From assembly GCA_963575745.1 (NCBI GenBank), contig CAUYUJ010000105.1:1-64000 (forward strand): 64,000 bases of DNA, given 5' to 3'. Both the position numbers and the translations under genes were made by a program. Every line of letters starts with the position of its first letter. The stretch's first letter is position 1. This DNA is from Prorocentrum cordatum (Eukaryota). The notes beneath the pieces are model-generated. The model was not told the origin of the DNA and searched no databases. It saw only the letters and a program-made list of their open reading frames with translations. This document shows positions 633 to 64,000 of the stretch, in pieces.

Positions 633-855
633 GCTTTCGAAAGAGGCGGGACGCGCCCCGCCAAACGGCCGCACGCGCGCGCGACGTGGCCGCTCCTGCG
701 TGGCCGGCATGCCCAGCTGCGCGGGCGGCCCGCCGTCGACCTCGCAGGCCGGGAGGGGTCTGGGAGGGGCTCCTGTGCCAGGGGGGGGGGGCCACAGCGG
801 CGGTTGCCGTGGGGAGGAAGAGAGGGAGGAGGAGAAGGAGGAGGAGGAGGAGGAG

Positions 856-7709: not shown

Positions 7710-7731
7710 CTGGCGCCAAAACGGCTACGGA
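7710..7731 (-). other. Relic dinoflagellate spliced leader (DinoSL)
   Basis: Minus strand TCCGTAGCCGTTTTGGCGCCAG versus DinoSL DCCGTAGCCATTTTGGCTCAAG: 19/22 match. Confidence 0.85.
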
Positions 7732-7844
7732 GGAGGAGGACGACGACGAGGAGGAGGAGAAGATGAAGGCCCCTGGAGGCCCGCGCGTGGGAGGGTGGCC
7801 GCTGAGGGCCTCGCCCCATCCTCGCGCAACACCCCGCGTGCCCA

Positions 7845-7862
7845 AGACGGCGACGGCAGCGG

Positions 7863-7894
<32 letters not shown>

Positions 7895-8323
7895 ACGCCG
7901 GCCACGGCGGCGGCAACGCCGGCCACGGCTGCGGCGGCAGCGGCGGCGACGACCACGGCGACAACGATCACTTCGACGACGCCGACGACGAAGGCGAAGG
8001 CGGCGACGGCGGCAGTAACGGCGGCGGCGGCGACGACAACGGCGGCGTCGGCGGCGGCGGCGGCGACGGCGGCGGCAACGATGACGCTGCAGAGACGCCC
8101 AGGCCTCGGCGCGCGGTCTGCCGCACGAGTTGCCGTTGCAGTTCGTGCGCGTGGGGAAATTCTGCGCGCGACGACGACCGACGACCGACGACCGACGCAT
8201 GACGACCGACGACCGACGACCGACAACCGACGACCGACGACCGACGACCGACGACCGACGACCGACGACGACGACCGACGACCGACGACGGACGATGTCG
8301 ACCGACGACGGACGACGGACGAC

Positions 8324-8371
<48 letters not shown>

Positions 8372-8441
8372 ACTACGGACTACGGCGATGACGACGACGA
8401 AAACGACGACGACGACGTACAGACGACGACGGACCACGACA

Positions 8442-8480
<39 letters not shown>
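7845..8480. repeat. (GGC)n, (ACCG/ACG)n and (ACG)n simple repeats
   Basis: Directly visible. Confidence 0.9.
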
Positions 8481-8481
<1 letters not shown>

Positions 8482-8561
8482 CCGATCGAGCACAGTCGAG
8501 ACAGGGCCACGAAGCCGCTCCGCCGAATGCCAGAGTCCTCATATGGATGCCCCAAAACGAA

Positions 8562-9670
8562 CATGGGACGCACAAAAAACACACTAGTATACGTCCTCCT
8601 TGGAGGCGCGCGTCCGACGCGAACATCTGATAAAACCACTGTAGTAGATCGTTTCCCGAACGGTACGGCCAGAGAGCGCCCGCCACGGAGCTTATACTCT
8701 AAGATTTCTCGGTGCGCGCGTCGCCCCAGGGGGACACACACACACATAAGACCAGCGCGTTGAAGCGACGCCGAGAACAAGATTCCGGGGAGGAGGGCCC
8801 AAGCACGAAGAGCATCAGGGAGTACCCCTCCATGGCTCGGGCTGTTCGTGCACCCTCGGGCCAAATGTGGCCTGCCTCAGGGGGCTGAGGGAAACGTCGC
8901 CGATAGACCCGCGACAGCGAAGAGACATACTAGTACTATGTGTTCTCCTTGGAGGCGAGCGTCAGACCGGAAAATATAGTATGCCCATCTTATATTTCAT
9001 CGTTTCCCGAGCGGTGTGGCCAGAAAGCGCCCGCCGCGACACATATACTAGAAGATGTCTCGGTGCGCGCGTCGCCCCTGGGGTGGCGACGCGCATGTAG
9101 TATAAGTAGATTGCGGTGACGCCGAGGGAAGGGGAGGGAAAGAGAGGAGAAGGAGATCGCCGGAGTCGCGCGCGACTCCGCGAGGGAGCCCGCCCGCGCC
9201 CGCCAGGGCGGGGCGTGGAGGCCGTGGCCTCGCAAATGTGATACGTGAGCAGACTCGCGGGGAAGCCGCCACGCCCTGCTCCCCTCCGCCGATGACCGTC
9301 GTGGGTCGTTCGTGTTATGCTCCTCCTCCTCCTCCCACCTCTCCTCCTCCTCCTCCTCCTCCTCCTCCTCCTCCTCCTCCTCCTCCTCCTCTTCCTCCTC
9401 CCCCTCTTCTCTACATCGAGCCCAACTGCTCCCCTCCGGCGATAACCATCGTATGGGACGCACAGGGACACACTAGTACTATATGTCATCCTTGGAGGCG
9501 CGCGTGCGACCCGAACATATAGTATACCCATCTTGTAGTACATCGTTTCCCGAGCGGCGTGGCCAGAAAGCACCCGCCACGGCGCATATACTATAGGGTT
9601 TCTTGGTGCGCGCATCGTCCCTGGGGGGGCGACGCACACATAGTATAAGTATGTTGGGTTGGCGCCGATC
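8562..9670 (+). mobile_element. Three copies of a ~200-bp SINE/MITE-like dispersed repeat (about 8562-8750, 8924-9125, 9452-9670)
   Basis: Shared core CCTTGGAGGCG(C/A)GCGT...CATCGTTTCCCGAGCGG...GGTGCGCGCGTCGCCCC...GACGCACACATAGTATAAG. A fourth copy is at about 51287-51510. Confidence 0.8.
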
Positions 9671-10118
9671 GCAGGTCATTTGTACTATGTTGCTCGTGTT
9701 AGGTTGTTCCCATCGTACTTGAGGACCGCATCCCAGAAAAAACTATCGAACACCTGGAAAAGTGTCGAAACAGTGTCGGACGAGTGTCTCCCAAGGCCCG
9801 ACACTTGAAAACCCTTGAGTTTCGGTACTTTTGGTGCTCGACATTCTTTCTGGTGATCAAGGCTAAAGTAGGTTGGATCAGCATAATGCTCGTGCCGTCT
9901 CGGCGTGGTTGCTGCCCAGATCTGGTCCCGCTCGGCGTCGGCGTCGCAGCATTGCCCGCCCAGGCTGTGTAGATATTTCCGGGCGTCGCCTTCCCATCAT
10001 TTTTGGTTGCCCTCGATGCTGCCGGCGTCCTCGCTGGTGGCGCCCTTGCTGTCGCTGAGGAAAGGAAAGGGAAGGGGAGGGGAAGGGACGGGAAGGAGGA
10101 GGAAGGGCCATATCTCGC

Positions 10119-31451: not shown

Positions 31452-32852
31452 CAAAAAATCTGGCAAAGGCGGCCCCATGCCGTCGGGCCACTGCAGACGA
31501 CCCCCCTCGTCCAACCCTCCAGAACGAATTCCGCCCCTCCGCGAGCAGCTGCATCTCGTGCTGCTGCGAAGCGGGAGCGGCGCGAGTAGCGCCGTCTGCC
31601 TGAACGGCGGGGCCGGAGCACCAGGGGGCGGGGGGCTTGCCGACGGCGCAAACCGCCCCGCCTCCAGCGCCACTGCCCGCGCGGACCCGGGGCCCCCAGT
31701 CCTGGCCACGCTTGCGCTCGGCTGTTTCTTGCTGCAGATCCGCTGATGCGCGAGCGCGAGTGCGCAAAAAACTTACGACTGACCCATCCACGCTGGAAGC
31801 TGACTGCAACAATACGCGCCATCCTCCGACATAGTCTGCAAGCAGCCTGTCTGCAGAGGCGACGCGCTGCCACGAAACCAAATAGCGAGAGCCGAGGCGC
31901 GCGGGTTTAACAGCGCGCGGGGGGCTGTCGCACGACGGCGCCTCGCGGCGAGCGGCGACGCCCGCCCTACGCACTGCTGCTGCTGGTCGTCGGGGACCCA
32001 GTAGATCTCGACGAACTCGCGCTCCATGGTGGAGACGACCTCTGCCCGCGCCGCGCCAACGTCGGGCTACGCCCGGGCACGGGCCGCATACCTGGCAGCC
32101 TCCATGTTCAGCGGCGCGTCGAGGAGAAGGCCTCGCACACGCCCCCATCGAGCGCCCTCCCAGCAGCACCCTGCGGGTCGTGCTCTAGGGAAGAGCTCGG
32201 GCGAACGAACACACGGAAGCTGCGGCGTCTGCTTCGCGCCAACGAGCGAAAGCGAAACCGGCTCGCGGCCCTGCGCGCCCACGGCGCTGAGGACCTGGAT
32301 CAAACTACCGTACTGGAGCCCACTCACTGGACCCACGTAACAATCAAGCACCCGCGGGCCTGCGCCCCGAATGCACGTCGGAATCGACGGAGCTATAAGC
32401 ACCGCCTGCAGCGACCCGGCCCAGCCCGCGCCCTGCAACTCCCCCGGGGTGATGCACCAAACTCCTACCCGCGAGAGACCGCCCCAAACTTGACGAGCAA
32501 GTGCCAATTCAACTGCGACACGCAATGCGAGTCGCGAATATGCACGCTCACGCGCAGGAGCCCGCCCAGGCGCGCCACGGACAGATGCAACAAGCTAATG
32601 CGAGCCGTCTCAGTGCAGAAGCCTTGATCCAGTAACTCTGCCATATCAATACGTCTCGGCTCCAGTTGAAAGAGACCTCCAGCAGCGCCGCCGCTCACCG
32701 CGACCGACGCTGGAAGACCCTTGGCCGACCAGTCCATCATCCTTAGTCGGGCTTCCCAGTCTTGCACCTGCGCCACATGCCCCCGGTGATGCCACTGGAC
32801 ACAGACCGCCGCAGGACTCGAGAATCGGTCGCGCCTCCAACGCCGTAGCGGG

Positions 32853-33888
32853 CTAGGAGCTTGACGCAGCCATGCGATCCCGCTTGGACTGGCGCTCCTG
32901 CACGCGGCGAACGAGGTCCTCGAGCTCGGAGCGACCGATGAGAGCTGCGCCTCGCCTGGACCGACCACCGTCGGAAGCTTCGGATTCACCGCCACCTTCT
33001 CCTTCTTCATCGACAGCCATGGCCTGGGCGGCGACGAAGTCCTTGTAGAACTGGCCTTCGGGGTCAACGAACATAGACCAATCGAGAGGCCCATGGGGCG
33101 CCGCCAGAAGCTGGTGGAACGGACTGCGCCGCCGCTGACGCACCGCCCGCAGCTGTCGCATCGGCTGCCGCAGGCGCGCCTGGCGCGGCGTCGCCCCCAT
33201 TCTCAGATGGCGGCTCGGGGCCCAGCAGTTTGGCTCGGATGGCGTCGGCAAGCTCCTCGAACTGCCGCGCCTCATCGGGCACGGCCGCGCATGGCGCCGC
33301 CGCCATGCACTCGCGCTGCGCCAGCTGCCGGTTGGGGTCGACCTCAGACTTGCCCGCCATGGCGTTGTAGGCCTCGGCGGCCTCGGCTGATGCTGATGCA
33401 GCCTGCTTCTTGAGTAACTCGAGCTGGGTGCGGCAGTTGGCCATGTGCTGCATGGCCTTGACCGCGGCCCCTTGGCTTTTGTCGCAGCGACTCTGAGCTT
33501 GCTCAATCTGATGGCGGAGCGAGTCCGCGGCCTGCCGCGCGGCCTTGGCAACGGAGACTGGGGCACCAGAGTCGAGGGCACGATTCGCCACCACGCGGGC
33601 AATCTGCTTGGCCGACCAGTCGCACGCGAGTTTGTCGAAGTCAGCTGGCGGCATCCGAACATACACCGCGACGAGCTCGTCCGTGAGCTGCTGCTGCGGC
33701 TGCTTGGGCGTCTTGGACGGTGGCCCTTTGGCCCGCGCCCCGCGAACGACACGACGCGGCTTGCCATTGCAGCCTGGCAGGGAGCCGTGAGGAGCTGAGC
33801 CACAGATGCGGCAGCTCGTGCGCCAAGAAATATCGCCTTTGCACCCGCACCTCTTGATAGTGCACGCCCAACAAGAGAAGCCATCCAT
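32853..33888 (-). pseudogene. LINE-A ORF1 (RanBP2-like Zn finger plus coiled coil), one frameshift
   Basis: WACTIKRCGCKGDISWRTSCRICG, followed by an Ala/Gln/Lys-rich helical region; continues in a second frame to the stop at 32853. Confidence 0.7.
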
Positions 33889-34020
33889 CGCACAGGCTTC
33901 GACGGAAGAAAGAATCAAACCACCAAGAAAAACGCGGAACGGTACCGTACACAGAGTGCGTGCGCGCGCACCTGCGCTCGCTGTCGGGACCGCGACGTCC
34001 CCACGCCCAAATGTCAATTA

Positions 34021-43613: not shown

Positions 43614-43749
43614 GCGTGCTTGCCTTTCGTGCCAGGGAGGGAGAGGGGGAGGGAGACAGGAAGGAGGAAGAGGAGGCCGACGCCGATACACCTGCACGGT
43701 CCTGTGATTTTGCCGCTCGGAGCGTTCCGTCTGGCCCTCTAGCCGCTGC

Positions 43750-43926
43750 TCACTCGTCGTCCTCGTCGGCCTTCTCCACGCTGGCGGTCAGGAGGTTCTT
43801 CGCCTCGTCCTCCTCCGGCCGGAGCATCTCGACGCCAGCGTCATCGCCGCCAGAGTGCATCTCCATGAGTTTGGTGATGTCAAACTTCGGCTTCTTCAGG
43901 ATCTTGACCTTCTTGATGTGGACGTC
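43750..43926 (-). CDS. RPS3A: 40S ribosomal protein eS1 (S3a), last coding exon
   Basis: DVHIKKVKILKKPKFDITKLMEMH is the conserved eS1 C-terminal motif. It has a CAG|G acceptor at 43927/43926, an intact frame to TGA, and GC-rich third positions. Confidence 0.92.
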   Translation of the reverse strand, partial: DVHIKKVKILKKPKFDITKLMEMHSGGDDAGVEMLRPEEDEAKNLLTASVEKADEDDE

Positions 43927-44466
43927 CTGGCGCGACCCGGACGTTCTCGCTCCAAACATCTTCGCATCGCGGAGAATCACGACGGGGGGGCCGTCCTTTG
44001 CTGTTTTCGGCCTCTGTGGGCCCTCGCAAAAGGCAATCGAAGCTTCAAAAAAACGGCTCGCGATGAAAAACAGCTTGCCCTGAAGAGAGGAAAACATTCG
44101 ACAGAAGACGACTCGCGGTGAAAAACAGCTTGCTCTGAGGAAAGTAAGGGTCGGAACTTCCAGGGGCCCCGCTGTAAAAAGCAGTTCGGCCACGCGCAGA
44201 GGGGGGTAGGGGGAGGGGGGAAGCATTCTTAGAAGCACCCTTGCTTAGAAGTGGCGGGCCTTCTTTGTAGATGTAAAGAGACGCGGCCTCCTTCTAAGAA
44301 GCCTTCCCCTCTCCCCCTACCCCCTTTGTGCGCGCCGCCAAGCAGTACGTCGGTTCTCTGGGGACGCTCTCGGCCGCTCCCCTTCGCCGCTGTTCGCGCC
44401 CACCTTGACCGCTGGACCCCTCGGGCGCGCGCTCTCCCACACGTTTTGGTTCCTTCCGACGCCAGT

Positions 44467-48097: not shown

Positions 48098-51000
48098 ATG
48101 CCTGGACGACCGTCGTGCATAGCGGCCATATCGGGACGTGTCTCATGTGGGTGCCCACTATGTGGCGCACAAGTCGTGGATGTGTGATGCAGTGAACACG
48201 CCAGGCGCGCACTAGCGTTGTATGGTGTGTGTGTGTTGTGTGCGAATGTGTGCATGCGTGCGGCTGTATGTAGACGCGTGTGTCATGTACTTGCCGTGCA
48301 TGTGATGAGCGCGGGTGAGGAGAGGAAGAAGAGGGTGTGTTGAGCGCGGGTGAGGAGAGGAAGAAGAGGGAGGAGGGGAGGTGTGAGGAGACGCGGGTGC
48401 GCCGCGGCAGGGAAGAAAACCAGAACCCCACGAAACACGTGGGGAATTAAGAATCCATGAGTCTTACAAAGACAATTCGATTGGTAAGAAACTTTGATTC
48501 CTCTCGAAATCTCCTGCTCATCCTCCTCCCTCTCTTCGTGGTCCTCCTCATTATTTTCGTTATCCTCCCCTCCTTCCCTTCCTTTTCTTTGTTTTTCTCT
48601 GACTTCTATTCCTTCACTTCTCTGTTTGCTCCTCATTAGATTCCCCCTCCCTTCATTCCTCCCTCTGCCCCCCAGTTGAACTTTGTTTATCGCCGTCAAT
48701 GTTTATCACCCCCAAAGAGCAGCCATGAGTACTCCCACACGACGAGTAGGGAACGACCATACAAATCGAGTAGAAGTCCCACTCCATCCAGGGAAGGCCC
48801 CGCCAGAACCAAGAGCGAGGATGATTTCTCGGGCCTCGTGATCCTACATCCGTACACCGGACATGCCTACATGCGACTTGCTGGGAAAATCTTCAAATTA
48901 TCCCCCTGGGGGGCCCGAACTTTATTATCCCCATGGTGTGATTATCACCGGCACAGGGTTATGATGGGTGAGGATGGGGAGGAGACGGAGGAGGAAGAAG
49001 GCTTCGATGACGAGGACAAGGCGAATGAGGACCACGAGGTCAGCACGATGACGACCCTGAGGAGGAGAAGGAGGAGGACGAGAAGGAGGAGGAGGTGGAG
49101 GATCAGGTGGAGGACGACATTCAGGAGGGTGAGGATCAGGACGACGAGGAGCAGGAGGCTGAGGATAAGGATGATGAGGGTCAGGACAAGGAGGATCGGG
49201 ATGATCTGTGAGGGAGGGGAGAATGGGCGGGGCCAGCTGATTCCCGAAAGCTGGCAAGATTTACGCCTGCTCTCAATTGCGCGTTCCTTCCCCCACACCT
49301 CGTCCGCATTGGTTACCTGTCATGCCCATTCTTCCCTTTCTCCTTCCACACGGCTTCGCCAGGGTGTGGTTTGTTTATAGGCACAACCTTCGCTGCAGCT
49401 CCTCCTCCCTCGTCCCCCTTTTCTCATCGCCACCCGCCTGCTTCCCTCACCCCAATATCCTTGTCCCCTCCTCCTCGGAGTGGTCCGTTGGTATTCCCTT
49501 GGGTGCATTCGGGTATGTTCTGGAGCCGTTTCGGAGGCAATCGAGAAAAACAACCTCGGGGTCGTCCTGGGCCCTGGTGGGGCAATGTTTGAAGACATTG
49601 GGGCTGCCTTGGTGTCCTCCTGGGGCGCACCACCCCATCCAAACCCGCGGTTTCACATTCATGCCCAATTCTCCCCCCTGCTCCTCATCTGTGGGGTTTC
49701 GCCAGGGCCTGGTCCACTCCTGGGCACAACCCTGGCTGACCTTTCCCCTCGGCCGCCATCCCCCCCTTTTCGCTCGCCCCGCCCGCCCCCCGTTGTTCCC
49801 CATGCTATGGGAGGGCGGGGTGAAATTGGCGGGGCCAGCTGATTGCCAAAAGTTGGCAAAATTCATGCCTCCTCTCAATTGCGTGTTCCTTTTCCATCCC
49901 CGCCGTTTCCATAGTGGTTCGCCGGGCACCTTGTTGCCGCAGGCCAGGCATTTTTTCGCCCAAACCTCACCTTACGTTTTCAAACTGCTTCACTTTCATT
50001 CCCCCCCCCTCCGCGTAAACATGGTCGTGTCCTCGCCGGGTGGTTGTCGAAGGTGTCGTTACGGGCTGGGGTACTCTTAGGTGCAACCCTCGTTTCATTC
50101 CCGCCCCCGTTCATTCCCCCGCACCTCTTCCGCATCCGTCAACTTTCATGCCCCTTCTTCCCTCTATCCTTCCATGTGGTTTCGCCAGGGTGTGGTTTGT
50201 TTGTTTATAGGCACAACCTTTGCTGCAGTTCCTCCTCCCTCGTACCCCTTCTGAGCTCCCTATAAGAACCTCCTGGGAGCCCTCTGAGCTGAGCTGTCTG
50301 GGATCCCTAGAAGAACCTCCTGTGATTCGTGTCCCTCGCAGATTTTTGTTAGGGCTTGTCAGGGCTTCCCAAAGCTTCCTGCGGCCATGAGGGTATCCGG
50401 TGCCATACATGCTGAGAGAGTTTGCGCGCTTCCCTCTCCCAGTACTAATGGGAGCAAATCTTCGCCCGCGGTCACGTCTATATTCCTCACCATCTGTCGT
50501 CGTCCAGTGGACGTGCAGAGCTTGTTGGTGTGCACTGCTGAAATACTTTTCCCGCAAAGCTGCTCGGCTCGGCCGGAGGAGCAGGAGGAGGAAGGGGAGG
50601 AAGAGGGGGGGAAGGGAAACCAGACGGAGGGGGAGTGGAGTAGAAGGACGGGGGAGGACATGGAAGAGGACGAGGAGGAGCAGGCGTTCACAACTCGCAT
50701 CTCGGACGGCATGCTGGCGAAGAGCATCCAGAGAGAGGGAGGAGAGGAGAAGAAGGTCGAGGAAGAAGGTGCCCGTTTCGCGTCCGAGATGTTCACTGGA
50801 GGTGATTTGCCCCGATTCGCTTGGGACATCCCTACAACTCTGGGTTCCAGAATGCGATGCTCGAAGAGTTTTCGCCCGTTGTGCGTGAAGCATCATCTGA
50901 CTTCTGGGTTCCGAGATGCCTTGACCTGAGGTGGTCTGGTCCGTTTGGCTTGGGACATCCCCGAAGGTCTGGTTTCCAAAATGCGGTAGTCGACATGGTC

Positions 51001-51954
51001 TGGCCCGTTTCGCGTAAGACGCACTCGAGAGTTCTGGGCTCCGAGATAGTTTAACTCGAAGTGATCTGCCCCAATTTGCCTGGAACATCCGTGCAATTCT
51101 GGGCTCCAGGATGCGGTTCTGAAGTGTTCCAGCCCGTGCCCCGCGAGACGCCCTCGCAGCGCCGGGTTTCGATACAACGGGATTCGAGAAACTCCTGGGG
51201 GGCGCACAGGGTCGTCCGCCATTTTTACAGCATGACCGCTTGTCTGGGTCGGCCACCGCCGACGTGCAAGAATGCCGGGGCTGGCCATGGGACGCACAGG
51301 GACATACTAAAACTATCTGTCCTCCTTGGAGGCGCGCGTCCGACCCGAACATCTAGTATACCAATCTTGCAGTGCATCGTTTCCTGAGCGGTGTAGCCAG
51401 AGAGCGCCCGCCACGACGCATGTACTAGAAGACTTCTCGGTGCGCGCGTCGCCCCTGAGGGGGGCGACGCACATATAGTATAAGTATGCTGTGTTGACGC
51501 CGATCGTAGGTCGTTTGTGATATGTTTTGGCTTTGTCTTGGGGGTCTGCGCTATTGGGGGGGTAGTTCAGGGGCTGGCTCACGAGCAATCTTGTATTTCG
51601 CTTCCACGGCCTGCCGCACGCAGCGTTTGCCGCAATTGATTTGCATCTCGGCCCAGCTACCACTCATTATATCAGAGGACATTCGCAAATCGCAAACCGC
51701 CAATAACCGATGAATGGACGACTGAGGTAGCGGGCTTACGTTCAAAGCAAGCGCACTCACATAACGGCTTGCCAGGGAACTTCGGGGCTGCGCACGCGCG
51801 GCAATAGGCGTGCGAATTTCCATGCGTCGTTCGTGCGCCAACTCGTACACCGACCCCCCCCCCCATCGCTTTTCACATTGATGTTGCTTCCCATGCGTTG
51901 CCCATGCTCCCGGGCGCATCGGGGCACCTAGGGGCGATAGGGGCTACAGCAGCA

Positions 51955-52315: not shown

Positions 52316-52429
52316 GCCAGGCCAGGAGCGGCCCCGATTCACTCAGCGCCCCGCCTGCGCGCTGCGCAGGCGCGCGCAGCGCCTGCGCTGCCCGCGCTCG
52401 CCGCCAGGAACGGGACGTCGGAGCAGTGG

Positions 52430-53215
52430 CCCAGCCATTTTCGCCGGAGAGATCCTCACACTTCTGACCTCGGGAATGCCCCAGTCTGAGGCGGTCCAGC
52501 AGATCCTCGCAAATCTGACCTCGGAGATGGCTTGCCCCACGATGGTCCAGCCACTGTCGCCCTGGGACAGCCTCGCAACTCTGACCTCCGAAATGGCCTA
52601 AACTCAGATGGTCAGGCCACCTTGGCCTGAGACATCTTCGCAACTCTGACCTCGGAGATGCCTTACACCATGGTGGTCTGGCCACTTTCGCCTGAGACAT
52701 CCTGGCAATTCTGGATTCCCAGATGCCCTGAGCACAGGAGGTCAGACCACTGTCGGCTGAGATATCTTCGCAACTCTGACCTCGGAGATGCCCTGCCCAT
52801 GGTGGTCCGACCGCCTTCGCCTAAAAGATCCTCACAACTCTGGGTTCCGAGATGCCCTGAGATGAGGTGGTCAGGCTACTTTCGCCAGAGACACCATCGC
52901 TATTTTGACATCGGAGATACCCCGCTCCATGATGGGCCGCCACTTTCGCCTGAGACATCCTCGCAACTCTGGATTTCGAAATGCCGAAAGCTGAGGTGGT
53001 CTGGCCACTTTCGCGTGAGACATCCTCGCGTCTCTGACTTCGGAAATGCCCTGCCCCATGGCGGTCCAGCCACTCTGGCCTGAGACATCCTCGTAACTAC
53101 CGAGATGCCTTGAGCTCAGGTGGTCAAGCCACTTTCGGCTGAGATATCTTCGCAACTCTGATGTCGGAAATGTCAAGTTCCTAGATACCCTGAGCTGAGG
53201 TGGTCTGGCCACTTT
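52430..53215 (+). repeat. Degenerate ~60-bp tandem repeat
   Basis: GCCACTTTCGCCTGAGACATC(C/T)TCGCAACTCTG...GAGATGCC recurs. Related units are at about 50770-51130. Confidence 0.85.
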
Positions 53216-53509
53216 GGGCCGTCGATGTCGTCGTCGTCGTCGACGTTGTAGTCGTTGTCGTGGTCGCCGTCCTCGTCATCATCGTCGCCGCCGTCGTCGT
53301 CGTCGTTGTGGTCGTCCTCGTCCTCGTCCTCGATATCGTCGTCCTGGTCGTCCTCGCCGTCGTCGTGGTCGGTCGTCGGTCCTCGTCGTCGTCGGTCGGC
53401 GGTCGTCGGTCGTTTTTCGTCAGTCGGCGTCGTCGCCGTCACCGACGCCGTCGTCTTCGTCGTCGTCGCCGTCGTCGTCGTCGTCGTTGCCGTCGGCGAT
53501 CTTCATCAG

Positions 53510-54100: not shown

Positions 54101-54683
54101 TCCGTCACTTTGATGGGTGCGACCTTATAAGTAGTTATAGGTTAGGTAAGTAGTTCTATTTTAAGAGAGGTTTGGATGAATTGGGATTGGTTAGGATGGC
54201 CTATAAGTTTTATAGGAATGCCGATAGTGTAGTGCCCCATAGCCCCCCCCCCCCTATGTTTCACTATAGGATCTATAGGAGCTTACAGTGTCCTATCATC
54301 AGCAACACTTGAAATCCCTAAACTTATGTATTTTCACTATTCTTACTACGTTTCACTATGGTTTCACTATTCTTTACTATTTGTTACATGATTGTCCCCC
54401 TTGTTTTCACGATGTCCCGCAATTTGTCACTATTATTTTTACTTTTTCATTACTTTTCAAAATTCAGACATTGAAACAAGTCTGACCGACGCCAGAACGT
54501 TGTGCTCCAAGGGAGAAGAAGGAGAAGGAGGAGGGAGGAGGAGGTGTTCTTCTTGGTCGGCTTCTACGACCTGCAGCTCGACATCCTGACGCATGCCGCG
54601 CGAGCCGCCGCGGGGGGGATCCCGCTCTTCATCCGCTCGATACCTCCTCTTCCTCCTCCATGATGTGCCTCGTACCTTTCTAC

Positions 54684-55060
54684 AGCGGCCAGACCGCTTC
54701 GCATATTTTCTCGTTCTTCCCCCTTTATTCCTGCATGGTTTCTACAGCGGCCAGACCGCTCTGCATTCCCCCTCTATTTCTCCATGTATTCAACAGCGGC
54801 CAGATCTTGCATTCCTCCTCTATTCCTCCATGTATACTACAGCGGCCAGATCGCTTTGCATAGTATCATTGTGTCCCCTCCCCTTCTCCTTCTTCCCTGA
54901 CTTTCGCAGCGGCCAGGCCGCTTTGCATTTGGTTTCACGTTCCATATCACGCAATATCGCCCTTGCTCGTTGCAGCGGCTTGGCCGCTTCAGTTGTCACG
55001 GCGGTCTGACCGCTAACGTGCGTGTATGCGCCCTTGTTTGCAACAGCGGTCTGACCGCTA
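54684..55060. promoter_or_regulatory. First cluster of AGCGG-N5-CCGCT palindromes (about 8 copies); function inferred
   Basis: E.g. AGCGGCCAGACCGCT at 54684 and 54746, with variants at about 54795, 54841, 54909, 54974, 55001 and 55045. Confidence 0.45.
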
Positions 55061-55342
55061 AATCTTTACTATTTGGTTCACGCAGCTCGCGCGTCGCTTC
55101 GGGCGCCACAGCGGCATGCCCGCTTGTTGCTTGCGCGCAGCATATGAAGATGAGGAAGAGGATAATGAAGGGGAGGTGGAGGAGGAGGAGGAGCTGGCAG
55201 GAGGAGGAGGAGCAAGACCAGGAACGGCCCCTGCGCGCCGCAGCGTCTCTCCATCCAAGCGTCGCGCCGCAGCATGCGCACACAGCCGCGAAGCGCGACG
55301 GCTCAAGAGCGGCTATAGTCGCCGCTGACGGTTGCGCCGCAG

Positions 55343-57291
55343 GATGGACGCCCCTGCGATTGCGCGGCGCATCTCCGCAGTCGGCTTCATCCTGCAGTCG
55401 ATCTGCGACCCGCTGCAGGTTGCCGCGGTGTCGCGCGCGCAAGCGGGGCAGGTGGTTAAGGAGCTCAAGAAGGCGAGGTTGCCTCCAGAGGACATTCAGC
55501 CGATTCTGCAGGCGATCGCGGAGTCACGCATCGCCGGCGCCGACAAGGCAGCCCTCAACACCTGCATCTCGCAGCTGGCTAGTGACGGCGATTCTGCCAG
55601 TTGCGTCGCTGGCCTTCAGGACTGGGAGTCGCTCCAAGAGTTCTTGCCCCAGGCAGTCTGGGATTGCCTGCCGACAGGGGATCCCAACCCCCTCTTCGAC
55701 TTTCTGATCGACCTCGGCCTCCGCAGAGCATCAGAGCCCACGAAGCAGACGATGGCTTGCCTGCTCATGCATGCAGGGAGGGGCCTTGACGGCGCAATTC
55801 AGATTGACGCTGAGCAAAGGACGGACTCTGTGCTGGCCGTCGGCACGCTATTCGCTGAGAGGGTGGCCAAGCGTCACCTGACGACCCCCATTCCTGTCAT
55901 CCTGAAGTTGCCGACGGTGCCTAGTATCCTGGCGAACGACTACCCCGCTGCGCACCAGCGGGCGCACAGTCTGCACCCACCGAAGCGTTTCGATCTCGAC
56001 CCCGTCGGCTGGAACATCCTCAAAAGGACTACCAAGATGCGCCACCGTTCATCTCGGCCCGCAAGCGTTGCGAGCCCCTCGTGGAGCATCCGCGGGGCGC
56101 AGCCAGCTGTCTCGAGGCAGAGTCCTGCAGGTTCTCCACAATGGCCTTCTTTGCAGCAACAGCAGCAGCAGCAGCAGCAACTGCCGCCGAGCCAGGACGC
56201 GTCGCCTGCGATGGTCGCGAAGCTGGTAACGTCGATGATGCCGACGCTGCTTCCGATGCAGTCGCAGATCCAGCAGGTGCCCCATCAGGCGTTGCAGCAA
56301 TCTCTCACAGGGCTGCCGAGCGGGATGGCGCAAAGTCCAAGCTTGTTTCAAGCGGCCAGCGCTGCAATGCAGCATGCAGCGGCCCCTGCAGCGCTTGCTG
56401 CATCACCCCAGCCTGCCGCATCGCCAGGTGCGCTTGCAGCGCTGTCGCCTCCTCAAGGGCCAAGTGCGCTTGCAGCAGCATCGCCAGCACCATGCGCAGC
56501 TGCAACAGGACTGCGCGCAGCAACAGCAGCAGTGCCGAGCGCATCAGCATCAGCGTCCGCAGCAGCACCAGAAGCAGACGCACCAGCAGCAGCAGCAGCA
56601 GCAGCAGCTGCAGCACCGTTCGCAGACGGGCCAGCAGCACCAGCGGCGCCTGCCGTTAACGCCCTGACGGGCTCCGACCCAAGCTGACCGTAGCCGAAGC
56701 AACAGCGAGGATCACAGAGGCTTACGGCTCGCAGAAGGCCAACCGCAAGAGGGCAAGGAAGGAAGATGGCGAACCTCCTGAGCTCAAGAAGGCTGCAAAA
56801 CCCGCTATGAAAAAAAGCCAGCGGCCGCTGGCCCCGTGAAGTTGCCGCGCTTGCACGACGAGTCAACGCGTTCACATTTCCTCGTCCGCTTCATGGGCCT
56901 TGCAGACACGCAGGCTTCCATGAGCTCCCCGTACACCACGAAGACGAAGCAGGCGACAAAGAAGGAGGCATTTCCATCAGAGGGGGGCGAACTTCGCGGA
57001 GGAGGAGGAGGAGCAACAGCAGCAGAGGAGGAGGAGCAACAGCAGCAGGAGAAAGGGGAGCGTAGGGGAGAGCAGGGGGAGGATAGGTGCGAGTATGGGG
57101 ATAGTAGGGGAGTGCTGGGGAGAGTCCGGGAGTGCGCGGGGGGGGGGAGGGGAGTGCATGCAGAGGGGCGCAGGGGAGCGCACAGGGAAGGAACGCGGGC
57201 CAGCCTGCAGGCCATCAAGACCTGCAAAGACGCGTGCAGCAAGGCCAACGTGGACGTGCCCAGTGGCCACGAGTTTCTCTCGACGAAGTGA
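55343..57291 (+). pseudogene. Gene 1: unknown protein with globular N-domain, Q/A/P linker and basic AP2-like C-terminus; two frameshifts, putative GC-AG intron 56968-57210
   Basis: LQDWESLQEFLPQAVW..LGLRRASEPTKQ. After a shift at ~56675: KLTVAEATARI..AMKK. After the A-run at ~56810: HDESTRSHFLVRF..KKE|AIKTCKDAC. The AP2 resemblance is an inference. Confidence 0.6.
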
Positions 57292-57692
57292 TCGTGCCAG
57301 AGCTCAGACTTTCATCGCTGCGTTTGCGCGTCAGCAGCCCTGGCCGTATACGAGCATCTGCGCGCAAGCTTGCATCATCTCAGCATGCCCACGTTTGGTA
57401 CAGCGGCCTAACCGCTTTGCTTGATGCTTTCTATAGCGGCCAGTCTGCTTGCATGCGTTCGCCAATATTGCTACAGCGGCCTGGCCGCTTGGGGTTTGCC
57501 AGATTTGCTTGTTATAGCGGTCTGTCCGCTTTCATTATTTTCCGCTTTCCCCTCCTCCTTCTCCTCCTCCTCTTCCTCGCCCCCCTCCTCCTCCTCTTCT
57601 TCCTCCTCCTCCTCCAGCTTGCGCGGCCGCCTGCGCCGCGCCCCCCTGCGAGGCTCCGCTGAGCCTCCCTGAGGCCCCCTGCAGCGGGCGCC

Positions 57693-58985
57693 ATGGAGGC
57701 GTTCCTCGAAATGGGGAACGCGGCGGTGCACTCCTTTCTTCTTGGAGAGGATATCTCCGCATTTGTTGTCTCTGCTTCTTTCTACACCAACACAGCGTCG
57801 ATGTGCTTACGCTAGTCGTCGATTGTTTTGAGTTGCATGCTCACCTCCCCCTGCATTGCCCCACTCCGAGCCCCTCCCGTGCCCCAGGAAGAAGCTCCTG
57901 CAGATGCTGGCCAAGCAGCAGCAGCGGCAGCACCAGCAGCAGCGGCAGCACGAAGCACCAGCAGCAGCGGCAGCGATGAATCAGCAGCAGCGGCAGCACC
58001 AGCAAGACCAGCGCCAGCACGAAAGAGCACTCCGTGGCCGTGGCAGACCCCCCGAGCACGAAGGAGGCCGCGACTCGCCACAGAGATGCCAGGGCGCGAG
58101 TGCTCGATCGGCATCCACGGCCTGGACAACCCTGGCAGCCGCCAGGTGAAGAGCCCTGTGCGCAAGAAGAAGAAGATGGATCCTTCTTCAAAGCTCGGCG
58201 CCGAGCAGCTGCCGAAGAAGCACATGGAACCTGCTTCAAAGTGTCGCGCGCCAAAGCCGCAGGGGACATCGGCTACCTCGCTGCCACCACCGCTGCCACC
58301 GCCAGCTTCGCCACCGCCGCCTCCTGCGGCAGCTGCAGCAGGCCCTCCACCGCCGCCTCCTGCGGCAGCTGCAGCAGGCCCCCCCTCGGGGACAATGCCG
58401 CTTTGGCCGAAGGCGGCGTCGCAGTCCGAGATTTCGCCGAAGCCCAAGCCTATCGCGGCGTCATCGGCAGCGGCCCCTGCAGCGGCAACTCCAGCGCCGC
58501 CCCCAGCGGCGCGCCAGCCGCCTCCGAAGCAGCCGACGCCACCTGCACAGCCGCCGCCTCAGGCTCTGCTGCAGCCTCCAGCGCCGCCTCCAGCGGCCCC
58601 TCCAGCGGCAACTCCAGCGCCGCCTCCGAAGCAGCCGACGCCACCTCCACAACCGCCGCCGCAGGCTCTGCAGCCTGGCCCCCACGGCTGGAGATCGCCG
58701 AACGGGGAGCCGTGGAGGGCGGGGGTCAACGGCGGCAAGGCGCGGCACGGCATCAGCGGCGGCCGCAATCGCGACTACTCCCGCTTGCCTGAGGCGCGTT
58801 CAAGGCGCAGAACCCGCACCCGAAGGAGCTCGAGAGGGCGCGGCAGTTCTACCAGAACGCCCCGCACGTCGCCAGGACGGCCTCGCCAACGCCGCCAGCA
58901 GCAAAGGCGGAAACCAGCAACACCGCGGCCAGCAGCAGCAACAAGCTCGGCAAAACGCCTTCACCCAAGCCTTTCCTTTGAGTAG
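57693..58985 (+). CDS. Gene 2: Pro/Ala-rich unknown protein with C-terminal GEPWRAG..GGRNRDY motif; exon 57693-57725, GT-AG intron, exon from 57888
   Basis: ATG in GCCATGG context, phase-0 GT donor at 57726, and CAG|G acceptor in frame with ORF 57828..58985. Probable frameshift near 58790. Confidence 0.5.
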
Positions 58986-59881
58986 CGGGCGCGGCCGCTT
59001 AGCTTTGCAGCGGAAGCGGCCGCTTAGCGGACGCGACCGCTCAGCTCAGCGCTGCAGTAGCGGACGCGACCGCTAGGAGGACGAGGGGGAGAGGACGAGC
59101 AAGACGAGGAGGAGAGGACGAGCAAGGAAACGAGGAAGAGGAGGAGGGGGACGAGCAAGGAGACGAGGGCCACCAGAAGGATGACGAGGAGAAGGGAGTG
59201 CGGGAGGAGGAATACGATAAGCGGCAAGCCCATGCCCGACGCGCCTCGCATCGGGCGCACCCCCGCGCCCCCGCGACGCTTCTGCGCCGAGCAGACGAGC
59301 TGCCTCGGCCCGCGCGGGGTTGCAAAATAGCGTGCTCTCCAGCATCTGCCCCAAGCTCCCGCGCAGCTGCCATGCTTCCTCCTCTTCCTAACACCTCCTC
59401 TTCATAGCGGCCAGACCGCTTTTCCTATTCCTCCTCGTCCGTCCACCTCCATCGTCCTTCATCCGGTATAAGTAGCGGCCAGACCGCTTTGCCTCTCACC
59501 CTTCTCCTGCACCACCTCCTCCACCATATCGCGGCCAGACCGCTCTGCACCTCCCCCTTCTCCTGCGCCACCCCCATCCACCCATGCAGCGGCCAGACCG
59601 GTTTGCCTCCCCGTCTGTCCACCTTCATCGCCCCTTCCACCAAAATGGCGGCCAGATCGACGTGCGCCTCCTCCTTCCCCCGCAAGCCCTGCCTTTGCCA
59701 AACAGCGGCAAGACCGCTTTGCGTCTTGCCATCGCCATGTAGCCTCGCATTGGTTGCGCCACATCCTTGAGTTTCGGATCGAGCGCTGAGCTGCGAGCTC
59801 CGCTGCCGCCTCCTCGCGAGGCGCGCCGCTTCCCGCCTCCTCGAGCGAGGCCCCGCTCGAGGCTCCGCCAGCGCGCGAGCG

Positions 59882-60730
59882 ATGGCGAGCGATCGCGTCG
59901 ACGACGACAACACGCGCACGCAGTGGCGGTTCCATGAGTGCCTGTTCAGCCACAGTTGCCCGCAGGAGAAGTGGATTAATCGCTCTCACAGGTGCCAGAG
60001 CTGGGACTCCGAGGCGGACGCGCGGGATAAGCTGTCCATGCACCTGCGCTGGAGCGAAAAGCACCAGAGCGATGTGGCCGACATGACGGACGAGGAGCTC
60101 AGGGACTTCGCGCAGGCGGTCGGGATCGATAAGCGCACCATCAGCAAGAACGACGACGAGTACAAGCGTTGGATGAAATGGGAGGCGGAGAAGGAGGAGA
60201 ACAATAGGCTGGCTGCAGAAGCCATCGACCGCAAGCAGCACGGCGACAGGGCCCGCCGCGCCGACGACGACAGGGACCGCCGCGACGACGACAGGGACCG
60301 CGACAACAAGATGGCTCGTCGTGGCGGTGGCGGTCGTTCTGGCAGCGGCGTCGACACGGAGCAGATCGCTGAGTTGGCGGCGCCCAAGCTCGCCGCTGGC
60401 GCAGCAACATCAGGGACTTTAGCTGCAGCACCCTCAGCAGCAGCACCAGCGACGGCATCCAAGTCACCAGCCGCGTTGGCGCGCCTGCATCAGGGCAGCG
60501 GTGCCATCGTGGACAACGCCGCGAGGGTGACCATGAGCCTCGGCGAGCTCAAGGCGCCCCAGGACGACGTCAAGCGGTGCAGCAGGGCGTCGAGCCAGAT
60601 GTTGCGCTTCCTGGATGGCGCCAGGGTTGCGTTCCCGAACGAGCTGCAGACGTTCAACGACGCCGACGAGACCATCCAGCAGCTCATCGATGCGCACTCG
60701 CCGGGGTTGGTCTTCGGCGGTCGCGGCTGA
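59882..60730 (+). CDS. Gene 3: 282-aa unknown protein with atypical C2H2-like Zn motif and C-terminal helical/coiled-coil region
   Basis: Intact ATG-TGA ORF with GC-biased codons; CLFSHSC...HLRWSEKH. Confidence 0.7.
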   Translation: MASDRVDDDNTRTQWRFHECLFSHSCPQEKWINRSHRCQSWDSEADARDKLSMHLRWSEKHQSDVADMTDEELRDFAQAVGIDKRTISKNDDEYKRWMKWEAEKEENNRLAAEAIDRKQHGDRARRADDDRDRRDDDRDRDNKMARRGGGGRSGSGVDTEQIAELAAPKLAAGAATSGTLAAAPSAAAPATASKSPAALARLHQGSGAIVDNAARVTMSLGELKAPQDDVKRCSRASSQMLRFLDGARVAFPNELQTFNDADETIQQLIDAHSPGLVFGGRG

Positions 60731-61991
60731 GCGGCATCTGCAGTGGCTCGCTTTCTTCTCTTATCATTACCATCGAGAATCTCACCATCGCAATCTCACC
60801 GTCGAGAATCTCACCATCGAGAATTTCATCCTTCTTCAGTTGCTGCGAGCCTGTTCGCATTAGAGCACTTCACGTCTTGCGTTGGAGACGCCCCTGTTTA
60901 GCCAGCGCCCAGCGGAGTTCCGCTCGAGACGGCAACGCTCGAGCTTTGCGCGGCTTTGCAGGAGACAGAGGCTGCGCGAGATCCCTTGCCATCCATTCCT
61001 GCTCCTTTTCTTCCTCCTCCTCTTCCTCCTCCTCCTCCCCCTCCTCCTCTTCCTATAGCGGCCAGTCCGCTTGCATACGCTTGCAATGTTGCTTCGGCGG
61101 CCTGGCCGCTTGCGTGAGTTTGCCAGATTTGCTTGTTATAGCGGTCTGTCCGCGTTCATTCTTTTCCGCTTTCACCTCCTCCTCCTCCTCCTCCTTCCTC
61201 GCCCCCCTCCTCCTCCTCCTCCTCCTCCTTCTCCTCCTCCTCCTCCTCCTCCTCCTCTGCCCCCTCCCCCCCTTCCTCCTCGGCGCCCCTCTTGGGGCCT
61301 CGGCGCCCCCTTGGTGCTGGCGCCCCTGGGCCTCGGCGCCCCCAAATCCGAAGCTCCGAAGCTCCTGCACATTCCTCTTCCTCCTCCTGCCTCCTCTTCC
61401 TCCCCTTCTCCACCTCCTAACCCCTCCTCCGCTACCCTCTGCCCCTCCTCCTCCCCTCCTCCCTCCCCCCCATCTCCCTCTCCTCCTCCTACCTCTCCTC
61501 CCTCTATCATATTTCCCCTCCTCCGCCTCCCCCTCCTCCTCCCCCCCTCCCCCCCCTCCCTCGCCCCCCCCTCCCACCTCTTCCTCGTCTTCCCCCCTCC
61601 CCCCCCCTCCTCTATCCTCCTGCCGCTCCCCCCCCCCCCCCCCCCCCCCCCTCCCCCCCGCCCCCCTTCCCTTCCATTGGCAGCATGCTGTATGTTAGCT
61701 TGACGTTGTCTGGGCGTTGTTTTCATATTGCTTTTTGCTGTTTATTGTTGTTTTACGTCGTCTTTATGTTGCTGTTTTGTTGTTTTGTGCGTTCTTGTAG
61801 GGCGGAGCCAGACAACATCGACAACACTAAAACAAAAAAAAAAAAAAAAAAAAAAAAAATGGTGTGCGTTGTTGTTTTTTGTGTTGTTGTATGGTGTGTG
61901 TGGTGTTGTTTGTTGGCGTTTGCTTTTGTTTTTGTTGTTTTTGGTGTTCCTCTCTGTCTCTCTCTCTCTCCTCTCTCTCTCTTCCTCTCTC

Positions 61992-62083
<92 letters not shown>

Positions 62084-62519
62084 CTGACTACTATTACCCC
62101 CCCCCCCGCCCTCCGTCACCTCCCTCATCAGTTTCCGACCCCCTCCTCAGCGGGCCAACCGCTTTGCGCTCGCTTCCCGCCTGCCTCCCCATTTTGCTCC
62201 TCAGCGGCCCAACCGCTTTGCGTGGGAGGATGAGGAGGGGGGGGGAGGAGCAGGAGGAGGAGGAGGAGGAGGAGGACGGACGGAATAACTATTTCGTCGC
62301 AGCCGTTTTTGGCTTCAACTTTTTTTGAATTCGCCCAACCGAATTCGAGAATTCGTTAAATGGCTGCCCGGGGTGCTCGCTGCGCCACGCGCGGCGCCCT
62401 CGGCCCCGCAGCCAACATGAACGCGCGGCACTTCGCGCAGGACGTTTCCTGGTGGCATCGCTGCTGCCTGCAGTGCGTTCGGAATTGCCGAGCGAGCTTC
62501 GGTGATGAGCATCGCTTAA

Positions 62520-62678
62520 CCGAACCCTATCCCCATCTCGGTGGCCTTTTCTCCACTAGGGGATTTACCCCCCGACATGGGGATATAGGCGGAATGCCTG
62601 GGGTTTCGGGGTGTATATCCCCATGTCGGGGGCGGCGGGAGGGGGCGGGCTGGTGGGGGGCTACATGGGGTTGTTAGG
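62520..62678. mobile_element. 159-bp TTAA-flanked MITE (piggyBac-like)
   Basis: TTAA at 62516-62519 and 62679-62682; CC...GG ends with imperfect TIR; perfect internal 19-bp inverted repeat at 62569-62587 / 62614-62632. Confidence 0.75.
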
Positions 62679-63284
62679 TTAATCGATACTGAGGCGAGGC
62701 GCTACTCACCGTCGACGCGGACACGGCCACGAAGCTCGTCGACGAGCGCCCGGCGATCGCGGCTCAGGCGCGCGCTGCCCAGGACGGCGAGAGAGACAGG
62801 CACGCCAACCAGCGGCGACGGCTTCACTGAGCGAATCCGCGCGCCGCGCGTTTCGAATCGGGAGCCGTGCTCCCCGCCTGCACCCGCAGAGAAAAAGCGT
62901 CGCGGAGGGCGACGCCTCCCGTCGAGGAGGCGCCGCGCGCAGTTCCTCCCCCCCCTCCCCTTCCGCGTTCTCCTCAGCGGCGCAACCGCTTTGCTTTGCA
63001 TGGCCCCTGAGGGGGGGGGGAAGAGCGGCCGAAACCAGACAGATCAGTGATCTATATGTTTTGGGCCCTCCTCCACCTCTTCCTCCTCGCCCCCCCCCTC
63101 CCCCCCCTCCTCCTTCTCCTCCTCCTCAGCGGGCCCAGCCGCTTTGCCTTGCAGTTTTCGCATGCATTTCCTCTTCCCCCTCCTCCTCCTCCTCGTCCTC
63201 CCCCGCCCCCCCCCCCTCCTCAGCGGTCTACCCGCTTTGCTCTGCAAATTCAGCGGCGCGGTCGCTTCCCGCGTTCGCGCTTCC

Positions 63285-64000
63285 CGTTCGCAGCCACTTG
63301 AAGGGCTTCCCGAGGCGACTGCCTTCGTCGGAAGTTCTCCCGCGCGCGCCGTGGCGCCCAAGCGCGTGGCGAAGAAGCGGCGTCAAGGAAAGGTTGCTTC
63401 GCTGCCTCGTGACGATGACGGCGATCATGCCGCTTCTTTTCCCATGCCCTCACATCATCTCTCCATCCAGGCGCAGCGGCGTGACCGCTTGGCACCCGGC
63501 CCCCCTCCCCCGCACCTCTTCAGGCGACGCTGCTGATGCTGCAGACGCAGCACAGGTCATCGCCAACGCGATGATGACGACCTTGCCCAGCTTCTCCGAC
63601 GACAGCCCTGCTCCCATGGCGCCAGTGGCAGCTCAGAACGTGCTGCAGTCGCTCTTCCAGCGCCAGGCCGCGGCAGGCAGCCAGGATGCGCCAACCGAAA
63701 AGGCGGGGGACGCTGTCGCAGGCAGCCTTCAGCCAGCAGCAGGCGAGCCTGTCGGCGAACCCACCGACGCGCCCGTCGCCCGCGCCCCCGAGGTCGCGCC
63801 AGCAGAATCCCCGAGCGACGCCCGCCCGCCCTGTCCGCCCCAGCCCGAGGCAACCAAGGAGGCGACAAAGCCTGGCAAAGAGGCAGCAAGGGACACCCTG
63901 CCTGACAAAGAGGCAACAAAGGAAGAGACTGAAGAGGAGGCGGGCGAGGAGGCTGAAGATGAGGACGTGTCAGTGGAGCAGCTGTCGGACGACGACAAGA
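63285..64000 (+). CDS. Gene 4 (partial): basic then acidic low-complexity protein; putative GC-AG intron 63421-63523
   Basis: ..PKRVAKKRRQGKVASLPRDDDG joins in frame to DAADAADAAQVIANAMM...EDEDVSVEQLSDDDK, open to the window end. Start codon not identified. Confidence 0.45.

What the first reader, a model, noticed from the sequence alone, without database searches (positions are those of the whole stretch)
54106..64000. Multi-gene cassette-like element punctuated by AGCGG-N5-CCGCT palindrome arrays
Seen: four same-strand genes of unknown family, three with dinoflagellate-style introns. Each is preceded or followed by clusters of one palindrome (consensus YAGCGG-N5-CCGCT-TTGC). There are more than 25 copies, near 54684-55060, 57400-57530, 58985-59075, 59405-59720, 61057-61155 and 62148-63490, and I did not see such clusters in the first 54 kb. 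Arms and spacer length are conserved while the spacer sequence varies, as expected for a dimeric protein-binding site or a hairpin signal. Inference: a large DNA transposon or virus-like element whose own putative DNA-binding proteins (gene 1 AP2-like tail, gene 3 Zn motif) read these sites for transcription, RNA processing or recombination. Defined cis-regulatory motifs are poorly known in dinoflagellates.
Basis: partly seen in the sequence, partly recalled or inferred. Interest (0 to 1): 0.8.

Follow-up and report, generated by a model that had tools for sequence, protein, structure and literature searches.

The report
Conserved hairpin arrays before transposon genes
The last 10 kb of this window is likely the left part of a large dinoflagellate jumping gene, and clusters of one small self-complementary DNA word sit just upstream of its genes, here and in distant relatives, likely as a folded one-strand signal for making those genes' RNA, a step that is poorly understood in these algae.

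Summary
The motif is real: 18 exact AGCGG-N5-CCGCT copies against 0.16 expected, none before 54,684. The region is a mobile element. Cover in public runs starts at 54,106, with three different flanks, and genes 1-2-3 keep their order in relatives only 20-30% identical. Two relatives run on to a CMCT-type transposase; one is complete, with inverted ends and a TA duplication. This copy's transposase and right end lie beyond the window and were not seen. Seven of those distant families carry arrays of the same stem, ending a median 106 nt before start codons. The spacer is not fixed (5-8 nt, mixed within clusters), broken pairs are mostly sense-strand G-U (25 vs 3 sites; 12 vs 3 kinds), and gene 1's tail domain is swapped while the stem stays. 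So a sense-strand hairpin is likelier than a rigid site for gene 1's tail; a promoter-proximal DNA site remains a real rival. No RNA data were available. The scan earlier noted other palindrome-bearing CMCT-like elements and a GCGG-N6-CCGC hairpin in a copia element in this genome; no note shown described these gene-proximal arrays.

The parts
54106..54470 (+). Left terminus (CAC...) and AT-rich subterminal region with TTATAA and TTTCACTAT repeats
   Evidence: Cover in run X1 rises from 0.49 to 77 at 54,106; contigs of X1, X2 and X4 join unlike flanks at 54,102, 54,114 and 54,108; shares CTTTGAT and AGTAGTTATAGG with the mapped left end of L038
54684..55124 (+). Hairpin array A (8 copies), upstream of gene 1
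   Evidence: 0 of 20 listed differences in other copies fall in the arms, 3.6 expected
55344..57291 (+). Gene 1: conserved 235-aa helical domain, low-complexity linker, swappable C-terminal module; frameshifts near 56,680 and 56,815; likely intron 56,968-57,210
   Evidence: 297 representatives at E<=0.001; intact frame in P0001/P0004
57402..57530 (+). Hairpin array B (4 copies), between genes 1 and 2
57693..58985 (+). Gene 2: likely intron 57,750-57,887, low-complexity middle, Arg/Gly-rich conserved C-terminal motif; exact end uncertain
   Evidence: profile from L035/L038/L048 hits it at E 6e-4 among 3,081 frames
58984..59074 (+). Array C: four copies with a 6-nt spacer, directly after gene 2
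59406..59718 (+). Hairpin array D (5 copies with up to one mismatch), upstream of gene 3
59882..60730 (+). Gene 3: N-terminal Cys/His motif and C-terminal helical part, one open frame
   Evidence: profile from L035/L048 hits it at E 1.4e-9
61057..61154 (+). Hairpin array E (3 copies), a duplicate of block B
   Evidence: 88.5% over 192 nt
62149..62217 (+). Hairpin array F (2 copies), upstream of the candidate gene 4
62360..62831 (+). Candidate small spliced gene 4, unverified
   Evidence: read from the sequence; no homologue in 20 loci
62976..63489 (+). Hairpin array G (62,976; 63,128 with 6-nt spacer; 63,222; 63,252) and one copy at 63,475, likely in an intron
63290..64000 (+). Start of candidate gene 5, acidic low-complexity, cut by the window end
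   Evidence: open frame; no homologue detected

Best explanation
Window 54,106-64,000 is likely the left part of a large cut-and-paste (CMCT-type) transposon of a dinoflagellate, and its repeated AGCGG...CCGCT word likely folds as a small hairpin on the sense strand just upstream of each gene, where it would act as a signal for making or processing that gene's RNA. Shown: the arrays, the left end, conserved gene order, the same stem in seven distant families with loops of 5-8 nt, its place about 80-260 nt before start codons, and a surplus of G-U over A-C pairs on the sense strand. Inferred: this copy's transposase and right end lie beyond 64,000; the hairpin forms in the nascent transcript upstream of the spliced-leader acceptor, so it would be absent from the mature mRNA; several copies are bound together by one RNA-binding factor that would license 5'-end formation (trans-splicing, or continued transcription) for each co-oriented gene. 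About 0.85 for the element class, about 0.55 for the single-strand reading.
For: Element: three unlike flanks meet the left end in three runs. L036, L038 and L041 show three flanks meeting at TA|CTG.... Genes 1-2-3 are in order in L035, the L036 family and L048, genes 1-2 in L042. L052 is complete: 117-9,687, 20-nt inverted ends with 1 mismatch, TA on both sides, gene 1 first, and last a protein with D, D, C(2)C, H(3-4)H and E motifs read from its alignment with L054, the signature given in PMC12730594 section 3.1.6; Atlas look-alikes include a cluster with Plavaka on 38% of members (a lead). Motif: arrays in 11 of 20 loci, 7 families. Inverted pairs peak only at spacers 5-8 (40, 24, 10, 21; at most 3 at any other spacer 0-20). 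Spacers 7 and 8 alternate within single clusters of L035 and L043. L043 has AGCGA/TCGCT; the closing pair is T-A in four families and C-G in L036. L036 fixes AGTGG/CCGCT, which folds on the sense strand (z -3.3) and not on the other (z -0.3). Broken pairs: 25 G-U, 3 A-C, 9 other among 109 clustered sites; 12 vs 3 by family and kind, p 0.035; a mirror-image scan without the cluster filter gives 29 vs 6 after dropping 7 A-C rows nested in perfect sites. Background bias is small (49 vs 39). Last hairpin to ATG: 79-257 nt, median 106, 17 genes. The 3' end of the spliced leader (GGCTCAAG, sequence from PMC12014239) lies 36-45 nt before the ATG, downstream of the array, in 3 of 17 genes. Gene 1's tail differs among stem-bearing loci.
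Against: No transposase or right end was seen for any stem-bearing element; the two loci with a transposase (L052, L054) lack the stem, so the link runs through gene 1 and the similar left ends. The window's left flank is GT, not TA. The G-U surplus by independent kind is borderline: p 0.047 with background bias, 0.07 without L044; copies within arrays are not independent. Two-sided changes are expected of a homodimer site as well. L044's word read on the opposite strand (CCTACAGCGG) resembles the window's sense-strand word, and its stem pairs better on the antisense strand in context (0.93 vs 0.67); for perfect stems the two strands differ little (window 0.60 vs 0.57). Arrays also follow stop codons (array C; after gene 3 in L035 and L048, where contigs end), so a 3' role is open. 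Only 2 of 17 genes pass p<0.05 for the 15-nt leader relic, and ATGs were assigned by eye. Relic leaders 50-100 bp upstream are proposed to be promoters (PMC5585692), which puts the arrays where DNA promoter elements would lie. Arrays grow by local duplication.
Confidence: 0.5

Rival explanations
1. Same element, but the word is an oriented double-stranded DNA site: two half-sites bound by a flexibly tethered dimer (host or element protein), working as a promoter-proximal activator or anti-silencing array for each gene.
For: Position just upstream of the presumed core-promoter zone; only inverted half-sites; arms conserved in other copies; two-sided changes fit a homodimer; L044 looks flipped.
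Against: Spacers of 7 and 8 alternate inside one cluster, 5 and 6 inside the window; mirror-image variants are not equally tolerated (25 vs 3; 29 vs 6); gene 1's tail is swapped while the half-site stays.
Confidence: 0.33
2. The hairpin forms in single-stranded or extruded DNA and serves transposition or cassette shuffling (an attC-like recombination or transposase-enhancer site) rather than gene expression.
For: G-T tolerance fits DNA hairpins too; arrays flank every gene; gene content differs between lineages.
Against: Gene order 1-2-3 is kept across deep divergence; spacing is tied to start codons; no recombinase gene was noticed in the ORFs read; complete element L052 has intact ends without the word.
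Confidence: 0.1
3. The arrays are non-functional minisatellite-like amplifications of a chance palindrome.
For: Units are visibly tandem in L035, L043, L048 and duplicated in the window.
Against: The same stem at the same gene-proximal places in 7 families whose gene 1 proteins are about 20-30% identical and whose DNA gives no blastn match to the window; 0 of 20 listed differences in arms.
Confidence: 0.05

Closest known systems
CMCT clade of DDE transposons, nearest in style to ESTA (Kojima 2025, PMC12730594; passages and section 3.1.6 read)
   Same: [quoted passage not shown]
   Different: Described there from fungi; here a dinoflagellate lineage with an ordered set of unknown genes and gene-proximal hairpin arrays. 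The window copy's transposase is not seen, its left flank is GT, and no tree against ESTA or Plavaka was built.
Nascent-RNA hairpin signals such as lambda boxB-N and HIV TAR-Tat (recalled, no call)
   Same: Short stem-loop near the 5' end of a transcription unit of a selfish element, sense-strand oriented; works-like comparison only.
   Different: Many copies per gene, loop of variable length and sequence, no reader shown; no Rfam family near its gathering score.
Dinoflagellate spliced leader and its relics (PMC12014239, PMC5585692; passages read)
   Same: The leader holds a 5-bp stem, T-AGCCA-TTT-TGGCT-C, that shares Y-AGC...GCT-Y with this word; leader-like relics lie between array and ATG in some genes.
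   Different: Inner pairs and loop length differ; the arrays are not leader relics; the resemblance may be chance.
Integron attC sites (recalled, no call)
   Same: Strand-specific hairpins between co-oriented genes.
   Different: Clusters of very short stems rather than one long site per cassette; no integrase noticed; stable gene order.

Membership tests
CMCT DNA transposon (window copy) | DDE transposase with C(2)C and H(3-4)H motifs | not testable with these tools
   A transposase profile from L052/L054 finds nothing in the window; the window ends inside the element and no genome is held. The motifs are present in relatives L052 and L054 (read by eye).
CMCT DNA transposon (window copy) | 5'-CA left terminus | tested here: met
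   Cover starts at CAC, 54,106; exact base uncertain by a few nt (loose ends at 54,102-54,114). The L036 family begins CTG.
CMCT DNA transposon (window copy) | Terminal inverted repeats and a 2-5 bp target duplication | not testable with these tools
   No inverted copy of the end within the window. Met in L052: 1 mismatch in 20 nt, TA on both sides.
CMCT DNA transposon (window copy) | Independent insertions sharing one end | tested here: met
   Three unlike flanks in runs X1, X2, X4, one contig each.
ESTA | TA target duplication | tested here: not met
   The window's left flank reads GT|CAC. TA precedes the end in L036, L038, L041, L045, L046 and L052; L054 reads AT|CAAG.
ESTA | Transposase groups with ESTA in a tree | not tested
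   No reference ESTA sequences were fetched.
AP2/ERF domain (gene 1 tail) | Match to the AP2 profile or to solved AP2 structures | tested here: inconclusive
   No AP2 hit for 21 tail sequences at E<=1 or in the PDB at E<=10; the tail was not folded.
Known structured RNA family | Rfam match at gathering score | tested here: not met
   6 weak hits, 15.7-24.9 bits, all well under their gathering scores; such short hairpins could be missed.
Integron cassette array | Tyrosine recombinase and attC core boxes | not tested
   No targeted search; none noticed in the Pfam scans of 9 window and 12 locus proteins.

The most novel reading that the evidence does not exclude
Dinoflagellate transposons carry a portable RNA hairpin, related in shape to the spliced-leader stem, that recruits the host trans-splicing or elongation machinery gene by gene; it is shared with an unrelated copia element and is the first defined cis-signal for 5'-end formation in dinoflagellates, usable to drive transgenes.
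Probability: 0.15. Interest if true: 0.9.

Novelty: new variant of a known kind. Interest (0 to 1): 0.66.

Why it matters
Apart from the TTT(T/G) motif, few conserved upstream motifs are known in dinoflagellates (PMC5585692, passage read). Here is a 15-18 nt word kept at a near-fixed distance from start codons in element families whose proteins have diverged to 20-30% identity, with natural variants (loop 5-8 nt, G-U and two-sided changes) that specify the mutants to test. Whether it proves to be RNA or DNA, it gives a directly testable handle on how genes are switched on or processed in these nuclei, and it marks a widespread, apparently undescribed lineage of cargo-carrying transposons.

Tried and rejected
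No genome is held for the window, so the genome-wide scan and the extension beyond 64,000 were not done; records behind L052/L054 are not held either. No RNA holder listed. Viral contigs: a two-copy pattern gave 34 stretches with 2-11 copies, judged unrelated from their contexts and not translated; protein scans found no relative. The first metagenome scan with close homologues found nothing; the second used the pattern GLR[NH]P[ST]EPT, so the 20 loci are a biased sample of the family. Word-indexed searches: gene 3 found nothing, L035 gene 3 only near-copies. Atlas gave no hit for gene 1. Pfam: nothing meaningful for 9 window frames, 77 family members or 12 locus proteins. Gene 1's domain folds well with 77 sequences (pLDDT 92.9; 43.5 with 3), but Foldseek gave no match at E<=0.001 and VIA only generic helical bundles over residues 1-87 (best Z 8.8, rmsd 2.7, 79 aligned); the viral fold library was not searched. 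A lower stem below the hairpin was rejected: no better than shuffled partners. The motif's leading YAG as a splice acceptor was considered: not Y in L048, untestable without RNA. The gene 1 tree (16 rows, four near-copies of L036 left out, L046 not recovered) is star-like; stemless loci L045, L049, L051-54 group at 91/87, below the starred level. Depth is not used as copy number. Literature searches (listings only) showed no paper on this word or lineage; the library lacks most subscription papers and Repbase, and supplements were not read.
Full report
Observation. The word is there and far beyond chance: 18 exact AGCGG-N5-CCGCT against a shuffle mean of 0.16, 26 copies with up to one mismatch in 54,684-63,489, and five exact copies with a 6-nt spacer. 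The first 54,105 nt hold no exact dyad at spacers 2-9. The word is oriented: Y precedes it in 26 of 26, T follows in 22 of 26, and the spacer leans to YCWGR. Part of the copy number is local duplication (57,427-57,615 vs 61,049-61,237).

Host and genes. Gene 1 is 63% identical to a protein that NCBI names from Prorocentrum cordatum and 75% to an ENA protein, so the host is likely a Prorocentrum-type dinoflagellate. A profile search found 297 representatives: a 235-aa helical domain, a low-complexity linker and one of several short tails. The window copy has two frameshifts relative to P0001/P0004, from decay or sequencing error. Genes 2 and 3 are confirmed by profiles built from related loci (E 6e-4 and 1.4e-9 among 3,081 frames). 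Candidate genes 4 and 5 are unverified.

The element. Public contigs cover the region from 54,106 on (0.49 to 77 in run X1), and one contig each in X1, X2 and X4 joins a different flank at 54,102-54,114. A metagenome scan gave 20 loci with distant gene 1 homologues. Gene order 1-2-3 recurs in L035, the L036 family and L048, and 1-2 in L042. L036, L038 and L041 have three different flanks that meet at TA|CTG..., and that end shares CTTTGAT and AGTAGTTATAGG with the window's end. L052 is a complete 9.57-kb element with inverted ends and TA on both sides; gene 1 is its first gene and its last encodes a protein with the D, D, C(2)C, H(3-4)H, E pattern that PMC12730594 gives for the CMCT clade (section 3.1.6 read, passages). 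Atlas look-alikes include a cluster with Plavaka on 38% of members. The weak point: no stem-bearing locus reaches a transposase, and the two that do lack the stem. L044 may bridge the groups, since it has the stem and a weak match (E 0.66) to the gene that precedes the transposase in L052/L054.

The word in relatives. Arrays occur in 11 of 20 loci, which are 7 families because five loci are 96-99.9% identical. Nine loci have none: L039 lacks the upstream region; L045, L046, L049, L051-54 look like one lineage (six of them group at 91/87); L050 stands apart. The DNA of the 20 loci gives no blastn match to the window element, yet the stem persists: loops of 5 (L044, L047), 6 (L036, L042), 6-8 (L035), 7-8 (L043), 8 (L048). 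Over the window and six loci, inverted pairs number 40, 24, 10 and 21 at spacers 5-8 and at most 3 elsewhere; direct or everted pairs reach at most 11 at any spacer. L043 uses AGCGA/TCGCT; L036 fixes AGTGG/CCGCT. Among 109 clustered sites the broken pairs are 25 G-U, 3 A-C and 9 other; by family and kind 12 vs 3, p 0.035. Background changes among L036 copies are 49 vs 39, which moves p to 0.047, or 0.07 without L044. A mirror scan gives 29 vs 13 raw and 29 vs 6 after removing 7 rows nested in perfect sites. In close copies of array A, none of the 20 listed differences within 54,684-55,124 falls in the arms (3.6 expected, p 0.018; 16 rows of that table were not shown).

Position. The last hairpin lies 79-257 nt before the next ATG, median 106, in 17 genes with ATGs assigned by eye, including gene 1, which has no gene upstream. 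GGCTCAAG, the 3' end of the spliced leader as printed in PMC12014239 (passages), stands 36-45 nt before the ATG in 3 of 17 (about 0.04 expected in 2,300 nt by my rough, after-the-fact estimate); the full 15-nt relic passes p<0.05 in only 2 of 17. So the arrays likely lie upstream of the mature mRNA's 5' end: promoter DNA or discarded leader RNA, not a translation signal. PMC5585692 (passages) places core-promoter motifs and the best-kept relics at -50 to -100, which keeps the DNA reading alive.

Reader. Among stem-bearing loci gene 1 ends in five different modules: the HE.SR.Q type (window, L048), a TIYTD type (L035), a short Trp/Tyr module (L036), a CxxC-GCxxC finger (L042) and a helical tail (L044) (labels are mine). 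The AP2 label found no profile or structure match. Genes 2 and 3 accompany the stem in most loci and were not detected in L052/L054, a lead resting on one lineage.

Mechanism. Best reading: a sense-strand hairpin array in the nascent transcript, bound cooperatively, licensing 5'-end formation for each co-oriented gene. Against it: borderline statistics at the level of independent events, L044's apparent flip, arrays after stop codons, and no RNA data. The main rival is an oriented duplex site for a flexible dimer.

Known and new. The element works like, and is probably a member of, the CMCT clade; the window copy fails the TA test for ESTA and cannot be tested for transposase or inverted ends. 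Searches of the held library (listings) showed nothing on this word or lineage; PMC10666404 and PMC11453091 were read as passages. Earlier scan notes on the same genome describe CMCT-like elements saturated with a different palindrome and a GCGG-N6-CCGC hairpin in a copia element; these are unchecked leads. The GCTGCAGC word is not enriched here (5 in the element, 6 in the 54-kb flank). Verdict: real, a new variant of a known transposon kind with an undescribed conserved cis-signal; interest 0.66.

Noticed in passing
L052:2,800-3,185; L046:3,460-3,636; L054:5,120-5,500: The lineage without the AGCGG stem carries a different tandem array in mid-element, GCTT(N)GCCTRCGGGCAAGC, a bulged hairpin (core counts 12, 8 and 2).
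   Followed up: partly
gene 1 family, P0005-P0154: One N-terminal domain is joined to at least five unrelated short C-terminal modules, a natural domain-swapping series; the N-terminal domain folds confidently with no informative structural match.
   Followed up: partly
L035:4,865-4,950: A GTTAAC-rich palindromic repeat at the contig end resembles the right subterminal repeats of L052/L054; L035 may be a short non-autonomous element ending after gene 3, or this is an assembly artefact.
   Followed up: no
window 52,426-53,217 and 50,883-51,078: 65-bp high-copy host repeat with its own spaced palindrome GTGG-TCTGG-CCAC, whose core resembles the YCWGR spacer of the element's word.
   Followed up: no
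window 62,300-62,318: A spliced-leader-like relic (10 of 15) 41 nt before the ATG of candidate gene 4.
   Followed up: partly
window 43,690-43,930, minus strand: An exon that reads like the C-terminus of ribosomal protein S3a (label recalled, not searched); no stem arrays near it.
   Followed up: no
window 31,460-33,900, minus strand: A stretch that reads like the 5' ORFs of a decayed non-LTR retroelement (by eye).
   Followed up: no
L041:2-1,180: The L036-family element here is inserted at TA inside another long open frame, likely a retroelement gene.
   Followed up: no
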